Origin: Bacteroidota bacterium
GTDB taxonomy: Bacteria; Bacteroidota; Ignavibacteria; Kapaibacteriales; UBA2268
Direction: 5' to 3'
Assembly (NCBI GenBank): GCA_021780815.1
Contig: JAJXYC010000009.1
Location: 31,157-95,156 of the forward strand
Length of the DNA stretch: 64,000 nucleotides
Shown: one piece after another, positions 2,262-55,830 of the stretch
Layout: each line of letters opens with the position of its first letter
How positions within the stretch are numbered: position 1 is the first letter of the stretch
Position numbers and translations under genes: made by a program
The notes under the pieces: model-generated
The model's database searches: none
Told to the model about the DNA's origin: nothing
What the model saw: only the letters and a program-made list of their open reading frames with translations

Positions 2262-4250
2262 TTATAAACAACTATCTTGAATTCTTTTTAAAGTTTCGTA
2301 AACATTAGATTTTAAGTGAATAAATTCGTCAATGCCTAAATTTTGATATTCATCAACTTTATCTTCTGGGAAACCAGATAAAATAATAAAAGAAGAAGGA
2401 TTTTTCTTTTTTATTAAAGGGACAAGTTTGGGGACAATAGTTTCATATTTAACATCAGAAGAGCAAATCGCTATAATATTAAAAGGATTATTCTCATCTT
2501 CACTTAAAAAGTATTGATTTGCTTCTTGTAAATTTGTAAAAATTGGACTATTTGTTATTTTAAATCCACCTATGCCCATGAAGTCATTAGCAAAATCGTT
2601 ACGTGGTTTCCATTCATTTAAATCACCGAAGTTAAATAAAAGTATATTAGGGAAATCCCCGTGTTTAGATTTAAATTTCAAGGCTTTATTTCGTAATTTT
2701 TCAAAATCTGATGCAAATCGTACTAATTGCAAAGGTGGTATAACAAATGCTTTTTGTTTATACATTATATTTTTTCCATTGCTAAAATGGTAGCCAATAT
2801 CTTTTTTGGGAGGTGCCTCTTCAACATAAGCATATTTATTTGTACCAACTAGAATCTGTTTTCTTGTTTTATAATGCTGTTTTTGTATTCCTGCGATAAA
2901 GTTCAACTCAGTTTGAATATTGCCATTTGTAATATTATCTAAAAACCCACCGTCTTTTTCAGTTGTTTGTATTTTATCCCAAGTTTTTTGAATAATTTCA
3001 GAAGTGAGTTCATCAACAAAATAAGAGCCGGCAACGGGGTCAATAGTATCAAGTAAATGTGCTTCATGAAGTAGGACTAATTGAGTGTTGCGAGCAATTC
3101 GACGAGAGAACTCATTTACAATGCCATAAGCAAAATCGAAATTAGAAACCTCAATACTATTTGCATTTCCCAAAATAGCCGCTAATGTTTCAACTGTTCC
3201 TCTCAAAATATTTACCCAAGGGTCAAATATAGTTTTATTTCTTAAAGAAGTTGCACAATGTATTTGCATATTGCAATTTTGTTCATCAGCACCATATTCT
3301 TTTATAATTTTAGCCCAGATAAAACGAGCGGCACGCAATTTAGCAATTTCCATAAAGAAATTAGAACTAACGCTAAAAGAAAAACGAATAGTTCTTATAA
3401 TCTCATTAATATTTAATCCTCTTGCAAGCAATTGATTTATTGTTTCAATAGCATAAGTAAAAGTAAAAGCAAGTTCTTGAACAGCGCTTGCACCCGCATT
3501 ATGGAATAAACTTCCATTAATAGTTATTATTCCAAAATTAGAATATTCTTCGTTAAATTGTTTAATGACTTTTGCCAGTAGATTATAAAGTTGCGAAATT
3601 GGTTTTGCAGAGCCACCATTGACTAATACTTCACTAAGTATATCAGAGCCTAAATTTCCGAATATTTTATTTTTGTTATAAATTTTAGTAGAAATATAAG
3701 AATCAAAGAGGAGAGCAAATTCAAAGAAAAAATCACCTGAATTGAAGTAAATTGGGTATTTTGTTAAATCAACTCCTTCAAATGCTTGTTGAAAAGCAAC
3801 AAGATTATTTAACTTTAAACCACAATCAACACTTTCATCTGAAAACTGCTGGTATTCATTTCTATTAATAAAGACATTAATAGCATCTTGTCCAGATTGT
3901 AAATCGTTGATTAATGCATCATTAAACATTTGTGGTGCATAATAAGGAATTATTTGGGCTATTTCCCATTTGTTTTTGATATAACCTGCCGCAGAATTTC
4001 CCCGTAAATATGGTTCAAATCCAGGGAAATTTACAAAGTCTTTTACAAAATTTTGTGAATCGATTAAATTATAAATTGGTTTTAAAATAATTTCTTCATA
4101 AGTATCAGTCATTAATTTTTTTTCAAAAGGAGAACCTTTGAGGGATTTGATAGATTCTTCTTTCCATTCTTCATAAGTAGGTTTGGGAAATTCATTAAAA
4201 TTAATTTTGTCAGGAATGTTCATTTTAGCCTCTGCATAATTTGAATTCAA
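2262..4250 (-). CDS. mutA: Methylmalonyl-CoA mutase small (beta) subunit
   Basis: 662 aa and directly upstream of mutB on the same strand. Shares the MCM fold motif [19 protein letters not shown] but lacks a B12-binding tail. Typical mutA-mutB arrangement. Confidence 0.8.
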   Translation of the reverse strand: MNSNYAEAKMNIPDKINFNEFPKPTYEEWKEESIKSLKGSPFEKKLMTDTYEEIILKPIYNLIDSQNFVKDFVNFPGFEPYLRGNSAAGYIKNKWEIAQIIPYYAPQMFNDALINDLQSGQDAINVFINRNEYQQFSDESVDCGLKLNNLVAFQQAFEGVDLTKYPIYFNSGDFFFEFALLFDSYISTKIYNKNKIFGNLGSDILSEVLVNGGSAKPISQLYNLLAKVIKQFNEEYSNFGIITINGSLFHNAGASAVQELAFTFTYAIETINQLLARGLNINEIIRTIRFSFSVSSNFFMEIAKLRAARFIWAKIIKEYGADEQNCNMQIHCATSLRNKTIFDPWVNILRGTVETLAAILGNANSIEVSNFDFAYGIVNEFSRRIARNTQLVLLHEAHLLDTIDPVAGSYFVDELTSEIIQKTWDKIQTTEKDGGFLDNITNGNIQTELNFIAGIQKQHYKTRKQILVGTNKYAYVEEAPPKKDIGYHFSNGKNIMYKQKAFVIPPLQLVRFASDFEKLRNKALKFKSKHGDFPNILLFNFGDLNEWKPRNDFANDFMGIGGFKITNSPIFTNLQEANQYFLSEDENNPFNIIAICSSDVKYETIVPKLVPLIKKKNPSSFIILSGFPEDKVDEYQNLGIDEFIHLKSNVYETLKRIQDSCL

Positions 4251-4389
4251 TAAACAAAAATTAAGGCTATTTTGGTAAAAAATAGTCTTAAAATGTAAAT
4301 ATGTAACTCATAAATTATTCATTTAAATAAATTTTCGTTCAATATAATATAAATTCTTTAAAATATATTATATTCAAAATTACGAAAAT

Positions 4390-5433
4390 TTAATAAATTA
4401 ACAAGGCATCACCAAAAGCATAAAATCGATAGTTATTCTTTATAGCTTTTTTATAAGCCTTGAAGAGAAAGTCTCGTCCGGCAAAAGCTGATGATAAAAG
4501 AATTGAAGGTGTTTTTGGTAAATGAAAATTAGTTAATAAATAAGAAACTATTCTAAAATCATACGAAGGATAAATAAATTTATCAGTCCAGCCCCGACTT
4601 TGTTTAATTGCCTGAGTAGTCAAATAGGAACTTTCCAAAGCTCTGGCAACACTTGAGCCAACGGCAATGATTTTCTTTTTATTTTTTAAAGCTTTATTTA
4701 TAATTTCTGCATTCTCTTTTGTAATTTCATAAGGTTCAGTGTACATACGATGTTTAGTAAGGTCTTCAACTTCAATTTCATCAAAAATTGCTTGCCCGAT
4801 AGTAACATTAACACGTGCAAATTTTATACCTTTTTCTTCTAATTTTGTTACGAACTCTTGTGAAAAGTGTAAACCAGCTGATGGTGGTCCAATTGAAGAT
4901 AAATATTTATCATTCGCAAAAACTGTTTGATAATATTCTTTATCTTTTGTCTCTGGTTGACGATTTAAGTAAGGTGGAATTGGCATCATACCAATTTTTT
5001 CAATAACATTAAAAAGATTATCTTGGTAACTAAATCTAACTGTTCGACCACGATTTGTAGTATTATCTATAACTTCGCAATAAAATTTGTAATCATCAAA
5101 ATATATTTTATTTCCTATACGAACCTTCCTAGCAGGTTCAACCAAAACGTCCCACAATTTTTCTTCGGCATTTAATTGTCTCAGCAATAATACTTCTATT
5201 TCAGCGTCGGTTTTTTCTTTATGACCGATTAACTTTGCAGGAAATACTTTTGTTTCATTGACTACGATACAATCGCCTGGTTCCAACATATCACATAAAT
5301 GCCCTATTGTTTTTTCTCTAATATCGCCTGTTTTTCGGTTCATTACCATCATCCGGGCGGCTTCTTTGGGTTCAATAGGGTATTCTGCAATTAAGTTCTT
5401 TGGAACTTGGTAAACAAAATCAGATAATTTCAT
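4390..5433 (-). CDS. queA: S-adenosylmethionine:tRNA ribosyltransferase-isomerase
   Basis: 347 aa. N-terminus MKLSDFVYQVPKNLIAEYPIEP and overall length are typical of QueA. Confidence 0.88.
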   Translation of the reverse strand: MKLSDFVYQVPKNLIAEYPIEPKEAARMMVMNRKTGDIREKTIGHLCDMLEPGDCIVVNETKVFPAKLIGHKEKTDAEIEVLLLRQLNAEEKLWDVLVEPARKVRIGNKIYFDDYKFYCEVIDNTTNRGRTVRFSYQDNLFNVIEKIGMMPIPPYLNRQPETKDKEYYQTVFANDKYLSSIGPPSAGLHFSQEFVTKLEEKGIKFARVNVTIGQAIFDEIEVEDLTKHRMYTEPYEITKENAEIINKALKNKKKIIAVGSSVARALESSYLTTQAIKQSRGWTDKFIYPSYDFRIVSYLLTNFHLPKTPSILLSSAFAGRDFLFKAYKKAIKNNYRFYAFGDALLIY

Positions 5434-5574
5434 TGTTATTCTTTAAATTGTTGATAATTATAACTTGCTTATTATTCAATTATTTAGGATTTTTTTTTAT
5501 ATATTGTAAAAAATATAATATACATTTATTAACGTTATTAACTTTAATTTATTGATATTTATTGTTTTTTTTAT

Positions 5575-6222
5575 TTATTTTGGAATAAATTCTTGTAAAT
5601 AAATTGGCTCAAATTCATTAGATTGAATAAACTGATTATTCTGGTAAAATCTATAAGAAGTTTCAGCTAATACCCAAGGATGGATAAAATTATTTGTGTT
5701 TAAAAAAGGTCTGTCTGATATTTTGTAATTTCCTGCGATGAAAGATTTTTCTTTTGGTTGAATTTCTTGAATTTTTTCAAATATTGGTTGGGAAATTACA
5801 TTTGAGTTTAAGTTAAAAAGTTGATGATAAGCCATTCCTGAATTAGCCGTTAAAATTGTTTCGATTTGTGTGCAATTTAAAAGTTTAGCAATTTCTTCAG
5901 ATTGAACTGAAAAAAGCAATAATGTTGGCAGGGAAATTAATTTAGGGGTATTATCAATTGTTAAGCCAATTGCAAAAGCGGCACCAATTCGTAATCCTGT
6001 GAAAGAACCCGGACCAGAAGAAATTGCAACTGCATCTAAATCTGCAATTCCTAATCCTAAATTACTTAAAGATTGTTTTGCCATTTGGGCGAGAAGTTTA
6101 TCGTGCAATTTTTTAATGTTTATAGAATTTTCGGCAATTAAAGTATTTCCAGAGGAAATTGCAATTGTGCAAATTTCTAATGATGTGTCTAATGAAAGTA
6201 TTAAAGGGAATTCTTTTGACAT
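5575..6222 (-). CDS. tsaB: tRNA threonylcarbamoyladenosine biosynthesis protein TsaB (YeaZ-like)
   Basis: 215 aa. N-terminus LILSLDTSLEICTIAIS... and GPGSFTGLRIG motif of the Kae1/YgjD/YeaZ family, short inactive-paralog form. Confidence 0.8.
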   Translation of the reverse strand: MSKEFPLILSLDTSLEICTIAISSGNTLIAENSINIKKLHDKLLAQMAKQSLSNLGLGIADLDAVAISSGPGSFTGLRIGAAFAIGLTIDNTPKLISLPTLLLFSVQSEEIAKLLNCTQIETILTANSGMAYHQLFNLNSNVISQPIFEKIQEIQPKEKSFIAGNYKISDRPFLNTNNFIHPWVLAETSYRFYQNNQFIQSNEFEPIYLQEFIPK

Positions 6223-49694: not shown

Positions 49695-51248
49695 ATGGCT
49701 GACATTAGTGGTATTTCAAGTTCTTCTTCTTCGAGTTCTACTCAATTAGACCAACTTGTAAATGCATATTTGCAAACTCAACAGCCTCAAATTGATACTT
49801 TGAATCAAAAGAAATCGGATTTGCAAACTACACAAACCTTTTATAATAATGTTTATACAAAATTAAATTCGTTAATTTCAAACCTTGATACTTTTGGTGA
49901 TTATAACGTAGCAAATAATACGGCTACTTTTACTAAAACCAACACGATTGATGCTTCTTTTGGCACAAAATCTGTTACAAGTTCTAAAACTGATGTAATT
50001 ACCGCTACTGCGACAAATGATGCAGTATTATCAACTATGAGTGTTCGTGTTGATAGACTTGCTTCTAATGATATTTTGATTTCTGACCAAATTAATTTAA
50101 ATGATACTTCTCGTATTGCAAATTATAATTTAAATACTGCAGGAGACCATAAATTTGATATTTCTGTGAACGGTGTTACTAAAACTATTACTGTTTCGCT
50201 CACTGGAACTGAAACAAATGAAGATATTTTAAAGAAAATTGCAAATGCAGTTAACCAAACAACTGATATTAATGTAAATGCCGCTTATATTAAAGATACA
50301 TCATCAACAGGGCGTATTACTTTTACTGCAAAAGATACTGGAAGTAGCAATAATGTTGTTATTTCTGGGACCGATTCTATTTTAAGCTATTTAGGGTTAA
50401 ACAATACTACTTCCAACGGTGATAGAACTCTTGCTACTGATACAACTGCCGGTTATATGAAATCAAACGCAAGTGATTTAGATGCAAAATTAAATGTAAA
50501 TGGAATTAATATTTATAGAGGTTCAAACACAATTTCAGATGTTTTAACTGGGGTTACACTGAATTTACTTAAACCGCAAGAAACAACAGAACAGCCTGTT
50601 ACACTTACTACAAGTGTTAATACAAATTCTGTTAAAGATATGATAACTACTTTTCTTTCAAATTTAAATGATATTACAAGCTTAATTAATAACACTGATA
50701 AATCACTTGTTAGAAGTGAAAGTTCAATTCAGCAATTAAAATATAACATCCGTTCAATAGGTTCATATAGAGTTGCTTCAATAACTGATGCAAATTCTCC
50801 GCAATATTTATCGGATATTGGGATTACAGTAGATAGTAATGGATTATTTAGTGTTAGTGATACAACAAAGTTAGAAAGCTATTTGAAGGATAATCCGCAA
50901 AAAGTTGCTAATTTATTTACTGCTCCTGATGGAGTAATAAGTCAAGTTAATAGCTTTATATATAACTTGCAAGGGACTAATGGATTTATTGCTCAAAGAA
51001 ATTCTTCTTTGACTCAACAAATTCAAAGTACAGACGATAGATTAAAAGAGACGCAAGATAAAATTAATACGCAAGCCGATAATATGAGGAAACAATATAC
51101 AACACTTTTGCAAACGTATTACGAAGCAATGGCACAATATAATTCTTACAGTGCATTTAATGGAACGACATCAAGTTCATCAAGTTCATCAAGTTCATCA
51201 AGTTCATTAAGTTCATTAAGTTCATCTAGTAGTTTAAGTGGTTATTAA
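49695..51248 (+). CDS. fliD: Flagellar filament cap protein FliD (hook-associated protein 2) with poly-Ser termini
   Basis: 517 aa. N-terminal LDQLVNAYLQTQQPQIDTLNQKKSDLQTTQTFYNNVYTKL and C-terminal coiled-coil FliD patterns. S8 run near the N-terminus and S13(LSS)2 tail at the C-terminus. Confidence 0.75.
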   Translation: MADISGISSSSSSSSTQLDQLVNAYLQTQQPQIDTLNQKKSDLQTTQTFYNNVYTKLNSLISNLDTFGDYNVANNTATFTKTNTIDASFGTKSVTSSKTDVITATATNDAVLSTMSVRVDRLASNDILISDQINLNDTSRIANYNLNTAGDHKFDISVNGVTKTITVSLTGTETNEDILKKIANAVNQTTDINVNAAYIKDTSSTGRITFTAKDTGSSNNVVISGTDSILSYLGLNNTTSNGDRTLATDTTAGYMKSNASDLDAKLNVNGINIYRGSNTISDVLTGVTLNLLKPQETTEQPVTLTTSVNTNSVKDMITTFLSNLNDITSLINNTDKSLVRSESSIQQLKYNIRSIGSYRVASITDANSPQYLSDIGITVDSNGLFSVSDTTKLESYLKDNPQKVANLFTAPDGVISQVNSFIYNLQGTNGFIAQRNSSLTQQIQSTDDRLKETQDKINTQADNMRKQYTTLLQTYYEAMAQYNSYSAFNGTTSSSSSSSSSSSSLSSLSSSSSLSGY

Positions 51249-52318: not shown

Positions 52319-52352
52319 AGTTTTTCGTTTTTAACTTTCTTAAAAAATAGTA

Positions 52353-52381
52353 AAGGTTGTCTTACAAGACAGCCTTTTTTA
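52353..52381 (+). terminator. Rho-independent terminator closing the flagellar late operon
   Basis: GGTTGTCTT-ACAA-GACAGCC stem followed by T6ATTCTTTCTTTTTC. Confidence 0.65.
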
Positions 52382-52464
52382 TTCTTTCTTTTTCTAAAAG
52401 GGACATTCCGATTGATTTATCAAATTCAATTTAATTTTTATAATTTATTTTAAAAATATTTTTT

Positions 52465-55400
52465 TTACTGCTTTAAGAAGCCATATTCATAGACTTTGGG
52501 TTCGATTTTGCGTGCTAAGATTTTTAATTTATCTCGGAGATTGCCGATTAAATTCATGTATTTTTCATCTTCGCTTTTATTGTTCATCTTTCCTTTTTCG
52601 TTTCGACCTTGGAAATACTCACGGATATCGTATAGTGAGGCATTAACATTATAACCACCCCGTCTTGCTTCGCAATCCACCCCTCCGGTGGAGGGGAATG
52701 TCTGACTATGATAATATTTCCAAAGTTCCCGACCAGCATCGAAAACAGCTTCGGCTTCTGCGGAAAAGATTAGTTTTTCATTTTCTTTATTTAATTGATT
52801 GTTATTGGAAAACACCCCTTGCGTCCCCTCTAAAAGAGGGGAATTATTTGAGAACACCCCTTGCGTCCCCTCTAAAAGAGGGGAATTATTTGAGAACACC
52901 CCTTGCGTCCCCTCTAAAAGAGGGGAATTTTCTTCTTCCCCTCTCGTAGAGGGGTCAGGGGTGTTATCTATAAAATCAGGGGTGTTATCTGTTGTAACAT
53001 AATCCTTATTTTTACCTTGTAATATAGTTCTCATTTTAATTATTTCATCTTCAAGAAATTTCAAAATTCCATTAAGATTATTCATAACATCAGAAAATGT
53101 AAAATGATAGACAATTAATCCCAAACCTTTTAAATAATTATCCCTTTCAAAATCATATTCAATTTTATCATTATGACTACTTCCATCAATTTCAACAACA
53201 AATCCTAAATCTTTACAATAAAAATCAACAATAAAATTTCCAACAATTTTTTGTCGGTCAAAATCCAAACCTAAATATTTTTTATTTTTTACTTGTTCCC
53301 AAAATTTTACTTCAGCAATATTACCTGATTTCCTTAATTCTTTTGCTCTTTCAGTGAGTTTCTTATTATAAGGTAATTCATACCATTTTGGGATATATTT
53401 ATTATAATATTTTAATTGATTATTATTGGAGAACACCCCTTGCGTCTCGTCTGAAAGAGGGGAATTATTGGAGAACACCCCTTTTGTCTCGTCTGAAAGA
53501 GGGGAAATATTGGAAAACACCCCTTTTGTCTCGTCTGAAAGAGGGGAATTATTGGAGAACACCCCTTTAGTCCCCTCTAAAAGAGGGGAATTATTGGAGA
53601 ACACCCCTTGCGTCCCCTCTAAAAGAGGGGAATTCTCTTCTTCCCCTCTCGTAGAGGGGTTAGGGGTGTTATCTATAAAATCAGGGGTGTTATCTATTGT
53701 AAATAAATTTTCTTCTTCTGCTTCTCGCTTTATTTTGCCTTTGATGAAATTAGTCATAAAATTACTTCCAAATTTTTCTTTGGCATTTACTTCACTTTCT
53801 GTAAATGGGAGCCAGTGATTTGTTCCTTCTTTGCTAGTAATTTTATTTTGTCCGTGGAATAAAGTGAAGGCTAAGCAATCATTTTGAAATTCTTTATCTT
53901 CTTTCCAACCATCATTTGGAAATAAAAATTGGTCTCTATCATTTAACCAAGTTGCTTCGATACAATGGCGAACAGAAAAATAAATAACACCTTCAATAAT
54001 ATTAACAGCACATAAATTATAATAATTTACATGTCTTGTTCCATACCTTACTGTTAAACATAAGAATTTATTGTTTTGAAAATCTGGTGCTGGATTCTCA
54101 ATATATCCAATTCCATTTTCAATTTTATTGTCAAATTTCTTAATCCATTTATTAATACTTTGAGGTAATTCACCATAGAAATTTTTTAATCCAATATATT
54201 TTTCTTCTTTATTATAAATATCGCAACTGATATTAGTGATTTTCTCTTTAATTTTTAAATCCCAGATAGTAAATCCGATTGGGAAACTTCCTTTCACATT
54301 GTCGAATGTGTTTGCGGGAACTATAAATCCTTTCATAAATTTTGCTTGAAAGTAATTTTTGAAATTGATAAAATTTGTTCCTTGAATAAATTTTAATGTT
54401 GAAAATTGGGCAAGGAATGATTCAGGCATTTTATCAATTATTCTTGCCATAAATAAAGCAAAAATTTCATTTGAAGCATTTCCAATTTTAGATTTATATA
54501 TTTCATTACTTTTATTTTGGTTTGCAACTCCTGATTTGTTCTCTCCTGTACCAGTTACTGTTTTAGCAGTTGTTGCTTCGGCATAAGGAGGATTAATGTA
54601 AATAACTAATTTCTTTCTTTTCTCGGGATTATTAATAATTTCGTAAAGTGGTTTGGGTAATTTATCAAAATCATCATTCAGGAAATCGAATTGGAAAACG
54701 TGTTCTTCGAGTAAATTAGCACCGTTCTTGATTCTGTCCTTCATAACTTCGACATCTTGCTTGTCGAGAGTGGAAGCCCAAATATTATATTTATTTGTTA
54801 AGCCGTTAAGCAAGTTTCCCGTACCAGCGGCACAGTCCCAAATATAATAATCGTCCTGCCAATCTTCGCCGAGAACGTCTGTTAAATACTTTTGCGAAAG
54901 TTCAACCCAAATTTGCGGAGTAAAGAAGCTGCCTTTCCGTTCTCTCACGTCTTGTGGCACGAGTAAATCACGCCTTTCGACAATATAATCCCAATATTCC
55001 TCTTTTGGAGGGCGGTCGTATTTATTCCAAAACTGATTATGAGCGGTTTGACCGTCATTGAAAGAAGTTGATTTAGAACTGAACATCCCTGATTCGTCGA
55101 TTTTCCTGTCTAATTCATAATGGTCTTTTTTTAGTAAGACGAAAAGTTTTTCTTTGAGGGTTTCGTTTTCGAGAGAAAGCAAATCAGCAAGGTAAAAATC
55201 GCCGTCGATGATGCCTGTTTTCTTGGCAATTTCCCAATTAACGGCAATTGTGGGCTTTACGTTCTGAAGCCACTTATTATAAATCACCATAAAATTATTT
55301 TTGTCGATTTTAGTTTTTGTAATCCCGAACCTACCGACAATAAAATTATTCTTAATGAACTTAATAAGGTCTTTTTCGTCCTGTTCGTAAGTAAAGAGCA

Positions 55401-55830
55401 GAGCTTTACTGTCGATGATGGACTTAACTTTCTCATGAACAAACTTAAATTCCTTCGTATCGTAATTAGAAGGAGTAACGTTCCAATTAAAATCGTTCAA
55501 ATAGAAAACATCGTGAATTTCATTATAAGGAACGAAAGCGATTTTATCGGAATCGAAAGCACCGAGAAAGGCAGGAGGCAAATGTTTATCGAAAGTTCTC
55601 GCTTTACCGATAGTAAGGATAAGCTGAACTAAAGATTTGTAGATGTCGGAAGAGCCTTTTTTAGCTTCAGCCCAAAGAAGAGATTCTTGTTCGAAAAGTT
55701 CCTGTTTGTTTTGGAACATTCGGACACAAAAATCAACATTACCAATAATAGAAGTGCAGTCATATTGCCAAAAAAAATCTTTTGCAACTTTGTTTTTGAG
55801 TTCTTCTTCTTTGATATTAAAATAATCCAT
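52465..55830 (-). CDS. MmeI-family (type IIL/IIG) single-chain restriction-modification enzyme-like protein with in-frame DUF559 (Vsr-like endonuclease) insertion flanked by tandem-repeat linkers
   Basis: 1121 aa. N-terminal segment DFCVRMF...LLWAEAKKGSSDI resembles the MmeI-family PD-ExK motif (D...hhxExK). Gamma-class MTase motifs X (GSFFTPQIWVE), I (DCAAGTGNLLNGL) and IV (VIYINPPYAEA) follow, then a TRD-like region. Residues approx 735-820 and 960-1020 are 14-aa repeats NSPLLEGTQGVFSN, and between them is a complete DUF559 domain (AKELRKSGNIAEVKFWEQV...FIVDFYCKDLGFVVEIDGSSHNDK...). Confidence 0.7.
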   Translation of the reverse strand: MDYFNIKEEELKNKVAKDFFWQYDCTSIIGNVDFCVRMFQNKQELFEQESLLWAEAKKGSSDIYKSLVQLILTIGKARTFDKHLPPAFLGAFDSDKIAFVPYNEIHDVFYLNDFNWNVTPSNYDTKEFKFVHEKVKSIIDSKALLFTYEQDEKDLIKFIKNNFIVGRFGITKTKIDKNNFMVIYNKWLQNVKPTIAVNWEIAKKTGIIDGDFYLADLLSLENETLKEKLFVLLKKDHYELDRKIDESGMFSSKSTSFNDGQTAHNQFWNKYDRPPKEEYWDYIVERRDLLVPQDVRERKGSFFTPQIWVELSQKYLTDVLGEDWQDDYYIWDCAAGTGNLLNGLTNKYNIWASTLDKQDVEVMKDRIKNGANLLEEHVFQFDFLNDDFDKLPKPLYEIINNPEKRKKLVIYINPPYAEATTAKTVTGTGENKSGVANQNKSNEIYKSKIGNASNEIFALFMARIIDKMPESFLAQFSTLKFIQGTNFINFKNYFQAKFMKGFIVPANTFDNVKGSFPIGFTIWDLKIKEKITNISCDIYNKEEKYIGLKNFYGELPQSINKWIKKFDNKIENGIGYIENPAPDFQNNKFLCLTVRYGTRHVNYYNLCAVNIIEGVIYFSVRHCIEATWLNDRDQFLFPNDGWKEDKEFQNDCLAFTLFHGQNKITSKEGTNHWLPFTESEVNAKEKFGSNFMTNFIKGKIKREAEEENLFTIDNTPDFIDNTPNPSTRGEEENSPLLEGTQGVFSNNSPLLEGTKGVFSNNSPLSDETKGVFSNISPLSDETKGVFSNNSPLSDETQGVFSNNNQLKYYNKYIPKWYELPYNKKLTERAKELRKSGNIAEVKFWEQVKNKKYLGLDFDRQKIVGNFIVDFYCKDLGFVVEIDGSSHNDKIEYDFERDNYLKGLGLIVYHFTFSDVMNNLNGILKFLEDEIIKMRTILQGKNKDYVTTDNTPDFIDNTPDPSTRGEEENSPLLEGTQGVFSNNSPLLEGTQGVFSNNSPLLEGTQGVFSNNNQLNKENEKLIFSAEAEAVFDAGRELWKYYHSQTFPSTGGVDCEARRGGYNVNASLYDIREYFQGRNEKGKMNNKSEDEKYMNLIGNLRDKLKILARKIEPKVYEYGFLKQ
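52788..52985. repeat. Repeat module B: three tandem 42-bp units plus a 70-bp terminal segment
   Basis: Units at 52808, 52850 and 52892 read GAGAACACCCCTTGCGTCCCCTCTAAAAGAGGGGAATTATTT, each with the perfect palindrome CCCCTCTAAAAGAGGGG. The terminal segment has a second palindrome CCCCTCTCGTAGAGGGG and a duplicated TCAGGGGTGTTATCT. Confidence 0.9.
52986..53408 (-). other. In-frame DUF559 (Vsr/restriction-endonuclease-like fold) domain cassette lying between the two repeat modules
   Basis: The translated segment YNKYIPKWYELPYNKKLTERAKELRKSG...LGLIVYHFTFSDVMNNLNGILKFLEDEI matches the DUF559 family across its full length. Bounded by near-identical direct repeats. Confidence 0.6.
53409..53705. 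repeat. Repeat module A: five tandem 42-bp units plus the same terminal segment, about 95% identical to module B
   Basis: Units at 53429, 53471, 53513, 53555 and 53597. Units 1-3 carry a degenerate palindrome (TCTCGTCTGAAAGAGGGG), units 4-5 the intact one. Both modules are preceded by the same TTTAATTGATTRTTATTG. Confidence 0.9.

What the first reader, a model, noticed from the sequence alone, without database searches (positions are those of the whole stretch)
52465..55830. Single-chain MmeI-like restriction-modification enzyme carrying an in-frame Vsr-like (DUF559) endonuclease cassette
The sequence shows one uninterrupted 1121-codon ORF. The first approx 700 codons have the architecture of MmeI-family type IIL enzymes: a PD-ExK-like N-terminus with LLWAEAKKGSSDI, a gamma-class N6A methyltransferase with FFTP / DCAAGTGN / NPPY motifs, and a TRD-like region. 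The last approx 100 codons look like a normal C-terminal tail. Between them sits a complete DUF559 domain, bracketed on both sides by the same approx 200-300 bp repeat module, so the DUF559 segment looks inserted by recombination rather than being an ancient fusion. The reading frame is preserved because the repeat unit is 42 bp (14 codons). A second nuclease fold grafted into a restriction-modification enzyme could change cleavage behaviour, for example nicking or a Vsr-like mismatch activity coupled to methylation. Alternatively it is a domesticated or parasitic DUF559 element using a restriction-modification gene as a safe harbour. The gene is solitary, wedged between the flagellar operon terminator and prfA on the opposite strand. 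It is the strongest candidate in this window for an undescribed defence or selfish module.
Basis: partly seen in the sequence, partly recalled or inferred. Interest (0 to 1): 0.85.

Follow-up and report, generated by a model that had tools for sequence, protein, structure and literature searches.

The report
Mobile DUF559 nuclease cassette inside restriction-modification gene
A restriction-modification-type enzyme gene carries, in frame within a floppy linker, a small nuclease gene (DUF559) bracketed by palindromic repeats; the same kind of cassette sits inside many other genes, mostly restriction-modification genes, across many bacterial phyla, which suggests an apparently undescribed selfish element.

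Summary
There is one 1121-codon ORF at 52465-55830 (-). It contains a complete DUF559 domain flanked by two copies of a repeat module built from 42-bp units.

The host part has no Pfam, NCBIfam, PADLOC or PDB sequence match. Its predicted fold matches type IIL, IIG and ISP enzymes (DrdV, MmeI, LlaBIII, BpuSI), and the PD-ExK and FxTP / DxAxGxG / NPPY motifs are conserved. It belongs to an unannotated family of solitary proteins of about 810 aa.

About 130 of 136 family members lack the insert. Five lineages carry DUF559 in the same hypervariable linker, drawn from at least two DUF559 sublineages. The insert is therefore acquired, not ancestral.

The flanking repeats are copies of one ~46-nt palindromic element, which I call B, that usually lacks stop codons. 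It lies forward upstream and inverted downstream of DUF559. The same B-DUF559-B' cassette lies in frame in HsdR, HsdS, type ISP, methyltransferase, QueA and LipA genes; 23 of 25 sampled hosts are R-M genes. It also occurs free-standing.

Sister strains show unit-number changes, loss of DUF559 and capture of a defence-candidate gene at the modules.

Best reading: selfish cargo, not a functional second nuclease. Whether DUF559 drives the mobility is inferred.

The parts
52465..55830 (-). Whole 1121-aa ORF: a type IIL/IIG-like R-M-type enzyme with an in-frame DUF559 cassette
   Evidence: ORF list. Homologues at 60-98% identity. AlphaFold model with mean pLDDT 75.8.
54976..55830 (-). N-terminal PD-(D/E)xK nuclease domain (aa 1-285); candidate catalytic residues D33, E55 and K57
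54241..54975 (-). Gamma-class N6-adenine methyltransferase domain (about aa 286-530), with motifs FFTP, DCAAGTGN and NPPY in that order. Boundaries are approximate.
53703..54240 (-). Rest of the conserved body (about aa 531-709): a moderately variable region likely to act in specificity, ending in ...FIKGKIK plus the start of the linker. Boundaries are approximate.
53413..53702 (-). Left module: an inverted B-like unit (GATAACACCCCT..CCCCTCTACGAGAGGGG) followed by five forward 42-bp B-like units, each encoding NSPL(L/S)(E/D)(G/E)T(Q/K)GVFS
   Evidence: The module is disordered in the model, pLDDT about 30. The A unit is the reverse complement of the B unit, read directly from the sequence and matching the general architecture.
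52998..53412 (-). DUF559 (Vsr-like PD-(D/E)xK) nuclease segment. The Pfam domain spans aa 824-924, which is 53059-53361. There is no in-frame ATG between the repeat array and the domain.
52792..52997 (-). Right module: an inverted B-like unit followed by three forward 42-bp units. It is a direct repeat of the left module.
   Evidence: 195 nt at 94% identity to 53508-53702. As single-stranded DNA it folds at -49.2 kcal/mol, z = -7.5. Sister strains carry 2 units here.
52465..52791 (-). Conserved C-terminal helical tail of the host family (aa 1014-1121, stop codon included)
   Evidence: Conserved in all homologues. pLDDT is about 90-98 apart from the aa ~1045-1060 loop that holds the solo B element.
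52654..52699 (-). Solitary canonical B element (TTCCCCTCCACCGGAGGGGTGGATTGCGAAGCAAGACGGGGTGGTT) inserted in frame in a tail loop, where it reads FPSTGGVDCEARRGG
   Evidence: Homologues have this loop either empty (QPNCNV) or holding 1-3 such elements.

Best explanation
The ORF encodes a solitary single-chain enzyme of restriction-modification type. It has an N-terminal PD-ExK nuclease, a gamma-class N6-adenine methyltransferase, a region likely to act in specificity, and a helical tail. It belongs to a widespread but unannotated family of about 810-aa proteins.

In this lineage the short hypervariable linker before the tail has acquired an in-frame copy of a mobile cassette. The cassette is a DUF559 (Vsr-like) nuclease coding segment without its own start or stop. 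It is bracketed by copies of one ~46-nt GC-rich palindromic element, which I call B. B lies forward upstream and inverted downstream, and it can usually be read without stop codons.

Here B has degenerated and been amplified into 42-bp arrays, and the whole inverted-plus-forward module is present on both sides as a direct repeat. Because the flanks translate as disordered Pro/Gly/Ser-rich linker, the host protein is probably still made. DUF559 would be tethered in a loop and the tail would still be able to fold back onto the body.

The cassette is cargo of a selfish element, not a designed part of the enzyme.

Shown:
- the anatomy of the cassette;
- presence/absence polymorphism among homologues;
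- acquisition from at least two DUF559 sublineages within this family;
- the same cassette in many unrelated host genes and in intergenic DNA;
- recombination at the modules in sister strains.

Inferred:
- DUF559 is the nuclease that promotes the spread of the cassette and of solitary B elements. It could do so by cutting at B or at empty sites, followed by repair-mediated copying, or through circle-like intermediates that recombine at B;
- the bias towards R-M genes reflects tolerance of insertions and hitch-hiking on horizontally transferred genes.
For: Host identity:
- There is no sequence-family hit.
- Catalytic motifs are invariant across members down to 30% identity.
- Foldseek top hits are DrdV (E 1e-9) and MmeI (1.3e-7).
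- Homologues are solitary and sit in unrelated genomic contexts. Some are on small plasmids.

Insertion:
- 117 of the best 120 homologues are 778-875 aa long and lack DUF559.
- The linker census covers 136 members, six of which (five lineages with the window) carry DUF559.
- The window's nearest relatives (77-78% identity) lack the insert. It is only 71-72% identical to the DUF559-bearing P0002 and P0120.
- Its DUF559 is 66-72% identical to copies embedded in N6_N4 methyltransferase hosts, but only 54-64% to those in its own host family.

Generality:
- 580 confirmed DUF559 loci were found in genomes of many phyla.
- In 27 of 64 parsed loci the domain lies inside a long stop-free ORF.
- 23 of 25 such hosts are R-M components. 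The other two are QueA and a lipoyl-synthase-like radical-SAM gene.
- A free-standing copy with its own ATG, flanked by 66-nt 92% direct repeats, occurs in a Melioribacteraceae genome.

Flanks:
- Within 120 nt upstream of the domain, B is forward in 29 loci and inverted in 6. Downstream it is inverted in 29 and forward in 4. Background is 17 hits in 200 kb.
- Long flanking direct repeats occur in 14 of 54 loci, against 5 of 54 controls. They are made of inverted plus forward B.

Solitary elements:
- 47 of 57 testable canonical B elements in metagenome contigs are solo and 9 have DUF559 just downstream. 54 of 149 lie in stop-free ORFs of at least 150 aa, in several frames.

Dynamics in sister strains:
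- Unit numbers are 5/3, 5/2 and 2/2.
- A 1082-nt duplicate of cassette plus tail brackets a DUF3644 gene.
- One copy has lost DUF559 between its modules.

Structure and precedent:
- The modules are disordered, while DUF559 and the tail are folded.
- Vsr-like nucleases are known as homing endonucleases inserted in coding genes (PMC2677866; 3r3p; PMC3424549).
Against: - No experiment or within-genome census shows transposition or homing. I could not count near-identical copies within one genome.
- The window's own 42-bp module was not found elsewhere: 0 hits in the genome and metagenome scans. This particular copy may therefore be old and immobile.
- Long flanking direct repeats are present in only about a quarter of loci.
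- The strong bias to R-M genes (23 of 25) could instead mean that DUF559 has a function there.
- The sample of 80 loci was chosen by similarity to the window's DUF559 subfamily and is not unbiased.
- The NJ tree of the host family is star-like, so many losses cannot be formally excluded by the tree alone.
- Host enzyme activity and its specificity are unknown.
Confidence: 0.67

Rival explanations
1. Functional fusion. DUF559 has been recruited as a second catalytic module of R-M enzymes, for example for nicking, second-strand cleavage or repair coupled to methylation. This would explain why it recurs in R-M proteins.
For: - The DUF559 catalytic motif is intact and the domain is well folded.
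- The frame is maintained in several strains.
- 23 of 25 embedded hosts are R-M components.
- COG2852 is listed among R-M/defence-associated families (PMC7251935).
- In the window there is no separate start codon, so DUF559 can only be made as a fusion.
Against: - Only six of 136 family members carry it.
- It is tethered by roughly 70-110 aa of disordered, copy-number-variable repeats.
- The host already has its own conserved PD-ExK nuclease.
- The same cassette sits in HsdS, which has no catalytic role, in QueA, in a lipoyl-synthase-like gene and in intergenic DNA.
- DUF559 subtypes are mixed among host families.
- In L015 the cassette breaks the reading frame.
Confidence: 0.12
2. DUF559 is a passenger. 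The palindromic B elements are the mobile or recombinogenic entity and are moved by some other enzyme or by the host recombination machinery. DUF559 genes are merely trapped and shuffled between B copies, as the DUF3644 gene was in sister strains.
For: - Most B elements are solitary: 47 of 57.
- A DUF3644 gene is bracketed by module-containing direct repeats in L087 and L001, so the modules can capture other genes.
- Unit number and cassette content change by recombination.
Against: - The association is specific and oriented. B is forward upstream and inverted downstream of DUF559 in most loci, across many phyla.
- 9 of 57 testable B elements have DUF559 immediately downstream, which is far above any chance expectation.
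- No other gene family was seen repeatedly in that position.
Confidence: 0.18
3. Artefact or decaying pseudogene. The chimera is a mis-assembly across repeats, or an inactivated R-M gene that is accumulating junk.
For: - The repeats are of a kind that can confuse assemblers. Several metagenome contigs end inside the gene.
- In L015 the related gene is frame-broken.
Against: - Four independent assemblies give the same structure at 99.5-100% identity outside the repeat-number differences.
- There is no stop or frameshift in 1121 codons.
- All catalytic motifs are intact.
- All length differences between strains are multiples of 42 bp.
Confidence: 0.03

Closest known systems
Type IIL / IIG single-chain R-M enzymes (MmeI 5HR4, DrdV 7LO5, BpuSI 3S1S) and the type ISP enzyme LlaBIII
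   Same: The domain order is the same: an N-terminal PD-ExK nuclease, then a gamma-class N6A methyltransferase with NPPY, then a C-terminal DNA-recognition region, all in one chain. These enzymes are the best structural matches. The gene is solitary.
   Different: There is no detectable sequence relationship: no Pfam MmeI_N, MmeI_hel, MmeI_Mtase, MmeI_TRD, MmeI_C or Eco57I hit, and no PDB profile hit. The protein is shorter, about 810 aa without the insert. The family is unusually conserved, 70-78% identity across phyla. Activity and recognition site are unknown.
Vsr-like (EDxHD) homing endonucleases such as I-Bth0305I, and the 'fractured genes' of Dassa et al. 2009 (PMC2677866)
   Different: Those elements are free-standing ORFs that split the host gene, often between split-intein halves or inside group I introns. 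Here the nuclease is translated in frame as part of the host protein, has no intein or intron, and is bracketed by a specific palindromic element that usually lacks stop codons.
Rickettsia palindromic elements (RPEs; Ogata et al. 2000, recalled from memory) and other in-frame MITEs
   Same: These are short palindromic selfish DNA inserted in frame into coding genes at permissive loops and translated as extra peptide. The B element behaves this way.
   Different: The sequence family and host range are different. B elements are consistently associated with a nuclease gene (DUF559), whereas RPEs have no known dedicated enzyme.
REP / RAYT (REPIN) systems (recalled from memory)
   Same: A small nuclease-type gene is flanked by inverted copies of a short palindromic repeat, and that repeat is also dispersed in many solitary copies.
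   Different: RAYTs are HUH/Y1 transposases and REPs are extragenic. Here the enzyme is a Vsr-like PD-(D/E)xK nuclease and the repeats and gene live inside ORFs.
Inteins carrying homing endonucleases
   Same: Both are in-frame insertions that carry an endonuclease domain and leave the host function intact.
   Different: No Hint/splicing domain or junction residues were found. The flanks are disordered repeats. No splicing is expected.

Membership tests
MmeI-family type IIL R-M enzymes | Sequence membership: Pfam MmeI_N, MmeI_hel, MmeI_Mtase, MmeI_TRD or MmeI_C, or detectable similarity to MmeI or DrdV | tested here: not met
   No such Pfam hit at E<=1. None appears in 29 divergent family members at E<=0.1. 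The family profile finds nothing in PDB sequences.
MmeI-family type IIL R-M enzymes | N-terminal PD-ExK nuclease domain with a D...ExK motif | tested here: met
MmeI-family type IIL R-M enzymes | Gamma-class N6-adenine methyltransferase (motif order X, I, IV, with NPPY) followed by a target-recognition domain in the same chain | tested here: met
MmeI-family type IIL R-M enzymes | Biochemistry: cleavage about 20 nt from an asymmetric site and methylation of one strand only | not testable with these tools
   This needs purified enzyme and a methylome.
DUF559 (PF04480), Vsr-like PD-(D/E)xK clade | Match above the Pfam gathering score, with the conserved core motif and fold | tested here: met
Intein | Hint splicing domain with a Cys/Ser at the N-terminal junction and Asn plus Cys/Ser/Thr at the C-terminal junction | tested here: not met
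   No Hint or intein Pfam hit. The junctions are repeat-encoded disordered peptides.
Homing-endonuclease-type selfish gene | Same insertion site in homologous host genes, with filled and empty alleles | tested here: met
   Five lineages of the host family have DUF559 in the same linker, while about 130 members are empty. Nine HsdR genes share one insertion site.
Homing-endonuclease-type selfish gene | The endonuclease cleaves the empty allele and the element is copied by repair | not testable with these tools
   This needs biochemistry and genetics. Precedent exists only from the related fold I-Bth0305I.
In-frame palindromic element (RPE-like MITE) | Short palindromic repeat, multicopy, inserted within ORFs without breaking the frame | tested here: met
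   B is about 46 nt with a CCCCTCC-N3-GGAGGGG hairpin. 54 of 149 metagenomic copies lie in stop-free ORFs of at least 150 aa, in several frames and both orientations. The tail-loop site is filled with 1-3 copies in some family members and empty in most.
REP/RAYT-type system | The enzyme is an HUH/Y1 transposase (RAYT) | tested here: not met
   The enzyme here is DUF559, a PD-(D/E)xK fold. Only the layout, a gene between inverted palindromic repeats, is alike.

The most novel reading that the evidence does not exclude
DUF559 proteins of this subfamily are the dedicated nucleases of a previously unrecognised, pan-bacterial class of mobile element. The autonomous form is a DUF559 coding segment between inverted copies of a ~46-nt palindromic element (B) that usually lacks stop codons. 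Solitary B copies, possibly including the Rfam motif whalefall-1, would be its MITE-like non-autonomous derivatives. The element survives by living in frame inside genes, preferentially restriction-modification genes, on which it hitch-hikes between phyla. It can also nucleate recombination that captures other defence genes, such as DUF3644 / PDC-S19.
Probability: 0.35. Interest if true: 0.85.

Novelty: new variant of a known kind. Interest (0 to 1): 0.66.

Why it matters
It would give a biological role to part of a very large family of unknown function, DUF559 / COG2852. Its reported association with R-M and defence loci has so far been only a statistical observation.

It would add a nuclease-plus-palindrome element that lives inside coding sequences to the short list of such elements (inteins, homing-endonuclease genes, RPEs).

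It warns annotators that fusions of DUF559 with HsdR, HsdS and methyltransferases are insertions, not designed architectures. DUF559 proteins are enriched among predicted programmed-inversion targets (PMC9881135). Whether these fusions explain that enrichment is my speculation.

It also flags a widespread, highly conserved type IIL-like enzyme family of about 810 aa. This family is absent from Pfam, NCBIfam and PADLOC, is annotated as hypothetical, and is found on small plasmids including one from Helicobacter pylori.

Tried and rejected
- Exact scan of genome contigs for the 33-nt core of the 42-bp unit: 0 hits.
- Degenerate-unit scan of metagenome contigs: 0 hits. The window's own module variant is therefore private to its lineage. 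I could not find other copies in the source genome.
- Family profile against PDB sequences: nothing.
- NCBIfam and PADLOC on the host protein: nothing.
- Rfam on the window's gene: only sub-threshold miRNA-family matches to the palindromes, taken as noise.
- First viral-contig scan for B used a wrong 4-nt loop and found nothing. The corrected scan found 16 stretches, none next to a DUF559, so phages are not an obvious vehicle.
- The intein reading was rejected because there is no Hint domain.
- Literature searches for DUF559, COG2852, Vsr-like with HsdR/HsdS, and in-frame palindromic elements found no description of this cassette. This covers the held library only.
- I looked for a conserved partner gene of the host family and found none.
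- I did not pursue the target-site consensus, because the linker is too variable to define breakpoints at DNA level.


Full report
**1.

The minus strand of 52465-55830 is one ATG-started ORF of 1121 codons. Pfam finds a single significant domain, DUF559, at aa 824-924 (E 8.4e-26).

Tandem Repeats Finder reports two arrays of a 42-bp unit: 5.1 copies at 53422-53634 and 3.0 copies at 52802-52929. A 195-nt stretch that includes these arrays is repeated directly on both sides of DUF559 at 94% identity. The unit contains the hairpin CCCCTCT-AAA-AGAGGGG. It occurs nowhere else in the 64-kb window, and none is expected by chance.

The gene lies between the end of a flagellar cluster (FliD, FlaG and a terminator at 52352-52377) and a divergent prfA. 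Three further assemblies of sister strains carry the same chimera at 99.5-100% identity outside repeat-number differences. It is therefore not an assembly artefact.

**2. What the host protein is**

Apart from DUF559, the protein matches no model of Pfam or NCBIfam, and it has no PADLOC hit at all. A profile of the family finds nothing among PDB sequences. It is thus not a sequence-level member of the MmeI family.

It does belong to a large family:
The best 120 hits are 60-98% identical and mostly 805-820 aa long.
- An exhaustive search of cluster representatives finds 1788 clusters, reaching down to about 30% identity.

Across that diversity the following residues are conserved:
- D33, E55 and K57, the PD-ExK motif;
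- G300, T304 and P305;
- D332, G336 and G338;
- D382;
- N413, P414, P415 and Y416.

A few divergent members touch Pfam N6_Mtase or Cas4 weakly.

An AlphaFold model built with 69 sequences is confident for the body, with most of aa 1-703 at pLDDT 80-97. Its fold matches are:
- Foldseek against the PDB: the type IIL enzymes DrdV (E 1e-9, 692 columns) and MmeI (1.3e-7). These are followed by CamA, M.BseCI, the type ISP enzyme LlaBIII, BsaXI and BrxX.
- A separate model of aa 1-285 (pLDDT 90.3): DrdV, the type IIG enzyme BpuSI and HsdR come first, followed by other restriction-fold nucleases.

The enzyme's activity and recognition site remain unknown.

Homologous genes are solitary and sit in unrelated housekeeping contexts. 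Some lie on small plasmids, including a Helicobacter pylori plasmid at 48% identity, where they are annotated as hypothetical.

**3. The DUF559 segment is an acquisition**

In the alignment the extra ~300 residues fall in a short hypervariable linker. This linker lies between the conserved body (...FIKGKIK) and a conserved helical tail (PL.FS.EA.AVF.AGRELWKYYH...).

Of 136 family members that could be anchored on both sides, about 130 have a short linker. DUF559 occurs there in five lineages:
- the window species;
- P0002;
- P0120, a Kapabacteria genome;
- P0232;
- L015, a Flavobacteriia genome. There the cassette breaks the frame, so the body and DUF559-plus-tail are separate overlapping ORFs.

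These lineages are not each other's closest relatives. The window protein is 77-78% identical to empty homologues but 71-72% to P0002 and P0120, and those two are 66% identical to each other.

The DUF559 domains tell the same story. The window's copy is 66-72% identical to copies embedded in an unrelated N6_N4 methyltransferase family. It is only 54-64% identical to the copies in its own host family. At least two independent acquisitions are needed.

**4. What the flanking modules are**

Read on the coding strand, each module is a unit GATAACACCCCT..CCCCTCTACGAGAGGGGAA followed by tandem units AATTCCCCTCTTTTAGAGGGGACGCAAGGGGTGTTCTC. The first unit is essentially the reverse complement of the second. 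This explains the strong fold-back of the module: -49 kcal/mol, z -7.5.

Other DUF559 loci show that this is a degenerate form of a conserved ~46-nt element, which I call B. Its consensus is AATTCCCCTCC-N3-GGAGGGGTGGCAG-(second hairpin)-GACGGGGTGGTT.

A canonical solitary B sits in frame in a loop of this gene's tail at 52654-52699, where it reads FPSTGGVDCEARRGG. In homologues that loop is either empty (QPNCNV) or holds one to three B copies.

The peptides seen next to DUF559 in many proteins fall into a few recurring types:
- SPPLEGWQAKPDGVV;
- FPSxGGV..RGG;
- NHPALRAPLQRRGI;
- HPSxGGE;
- PPRQ..ATPPxEGN.

By hand translation of the B consensus, these are reading frames of B in its two orientations.

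**5. The cassette is general**

A scan of one genome per species found 580 confirmed relatives of this DUF559 subfamily. The 80 kept come from many phyla: Bacteroidota, Ignavibacteriota, Spirochaetota, Cyanobacteria, Proteobacteria, Bacillota, CPR, Acidobacteriota and others. They are 46-65% identical to the window copy.

- In 27 of 64 parsed loci, DUF559 lies inside a long stop-free ORF.
- Of 25 such ORFs scanned with Pfam, 9-10 are HsdR. Nine of these share one insertion site, between the nuclease and motor domains.
- The others are three HsdS (inserted between the two recognition domains), five Eco57I/N6_Mtase-type enzymes of which three carry Type_ISP_C, four N6_N4 methyltransferases, one QueA and one lipoyl-synthase-like radical-SAM protein.
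- A Melioribacteraceae genome has a free-standing 130-aa copy with its own ATG in intergenic DNA, flanked by direct repeats about 620 nt apart. That is the same spacing as in the window.

The orientation of B around the domain is strongly biased. Within 120 nt, the upstream copy is forward in 29 loci and inverted in 6. The downstream copy is inverted in 29 and forward in 4. Background is 17 hits in 200 kb.

Long flanking direct repeats like the window's occur in 14 of 54 loci, against 5 of 54 controls. They reach 276 nt at 90% and 183 nt at 99.5% identity, and they consist of inverted plus forward B.

Among canonical B elements in metagenome contigs, 47 of 57 testable copies are solitary and 9 have DUF559 directly downstream. 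Overall, 54 of 149 lie in stop-free ORFs of at least 150 aa.

The layout is therefore a nuclease gene between inverted palindromic repeats, with many solitary repeats elsewhere. It resembles an insertion sequence with its MITEs, or RAYT with REPs. The difference is that the ends can usually be read through, so the element can sit in frame.

**6. Dynamics at this very locus**

Sister strains differ in unit number: 5 and 3 units here, 5 and 2 in L001, 2 and 2 in L087. All differences are multiples of 42 bp.

In L087 a DUF3644 gene follows the stop codon. It matches the PADLOC candidate defence gene PDC-S19 with E 2e-114. It is bracketed by a 1082-nt, 97.7% direct repeat made of module-DUF559-module-tail. 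In L001 the distal copy has lost DUF559, leaving a solo module plus tail.

The window allele has neither the duplication nor DUF3644. Its tail is the variant found in the distal copy. The modules are thus active recombination substrates that can duplicate, delete and capture genes.

**7. How it most likely works**

Shown: the anatomy, the polymorphism, the acquisition from at least two DUF559 sublineages, the spread across unrelated hosts, and the recombination at the modules.

Inferred: the fusion protein is made, because there is no in-frame ATG before DUF559. In the model the modules are disordered (pLDDT about 30), while DUF559 (71-88) and the tail (about 90-98 outside the loop that holds the solo B) are folded. 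Host function is therefore probably retained.

The main rivals are these:
- DUF559 is a functional second nuclease of R-M enzymes. The R-M bias speaks for this. Against it are the cassette's rarity in the family, the disordered tethers, and its occurrence in HsdS, QueA, a lipoyl-synthase-like gene and intergenic DNA.
- B is the mobile part and DUF559 only a passenger. The capture of DUF3644 speaks for this. The specific, oriented association speaks against it.

**8. Novelty**

The association of COG2852 with R-M and defence loci is known as a statistic. DUF559 proteins are also enriched among predicted programmed-inversion targets (PMC9881135).

I found no description of the cassette, of its palindromic ends, or of the host enzyme family in the searchable literature.

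A B copy in one locus matches the orphan Rfam motif whalefall-1 just below threshold: 32.2 bits against a cut-off of 37. This is a lead, not a finding.

I rate the finding as a new variant of a known kind, namely selfish nuclease-bearing or in-frame palindromic elements, with interest 0.66.

Noticed in passing
L087:106-5667 (NCBI GCA_027401335.1, DAHYUZ010000003.1) and L001:8001-12919; corresponds to window 52430-55830: Sister strains have a DUF3644 gene immediately 3' of the R-M-like gene. It matches the PADLOC candidate defence gene PDC-S19 with E 2e-114. It is bracketed by a 1082-nt 97.7% direct repeat of module-DUF559-module-tail. In L001 the distal copy has lost DUF559. The window allele lacks all of this.
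   Followed up: partly
window 52824-52926 and 53613-53631, + strand: On the strand antisense to the gene, each 42-bp unit scores as an intrinsic terminator (an 8-bp GC stem followed by a T-rich run). This would stop read-through from the convergent flagellar operon. On the sense strand there is no T-run.
   Followed up: no
L076:334-387 and 1127-1179: The palindromic B element flanking a Balneolaceae DUF559 matches Rfam whalefall-1 (RF01762). That is an orphan candidate ncRNA known only from a whale-fall metagenome. The scores are 32.2 and 21.7 bits, below the gathering score of 37. The motif may be a relative of B.
   Followed up: partly
Plasmid NZ_KM583817.1 (H. pylori) 3546-6097, plus Acinetobacter and Fluviibacter plasmids: The host enzyme family occurs on small plasmids at 29-48% identity over more than 90% of the query. 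It is annotated there as hypothetical protein or not annotated at all.
   Followed up: no
P0258 (1054 aa): One family member fuses the nuclease plus methyltransferase part (aa 5-525) to an LPD3 domain, which is typical of polyvalent proteins of conjugative elements and phages.
   Followed up: no
L015:677-3699: In a Flavobacteriia genome the same host family carries DUF559 in the same linker. However, the 39-bp repeat array shifts the frame, giving a 751-aa body ORF and an overlapping 300-aa DUF559-plus-tail ORF. This could be a fractured gene, phase variation or a sequencing error.
   Followed up: partly
Alignment A5 (25 DUF559-embedded ORFs from L008-L086): Two of the 25 host ORFs that carry DUF559 also contain a GIY-YIG nuclease domain, another family typical of homing endonucleases. 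I did not identify which two.
   Followed up: no
window 49695-51248 (+): The FliD (flagellar cap) ORF has poly-serine runs at both its N- and C-termini.
   Followed up: no
L076:2390-2434: There is a sub-threshold match to the Rfam Acido-Lenti-1 RNA: 27.7 bits against a gathering score of 37, E 0.01-0.03. It lies about 1.5 kb from the DUF559 gene.
   Followed up: no
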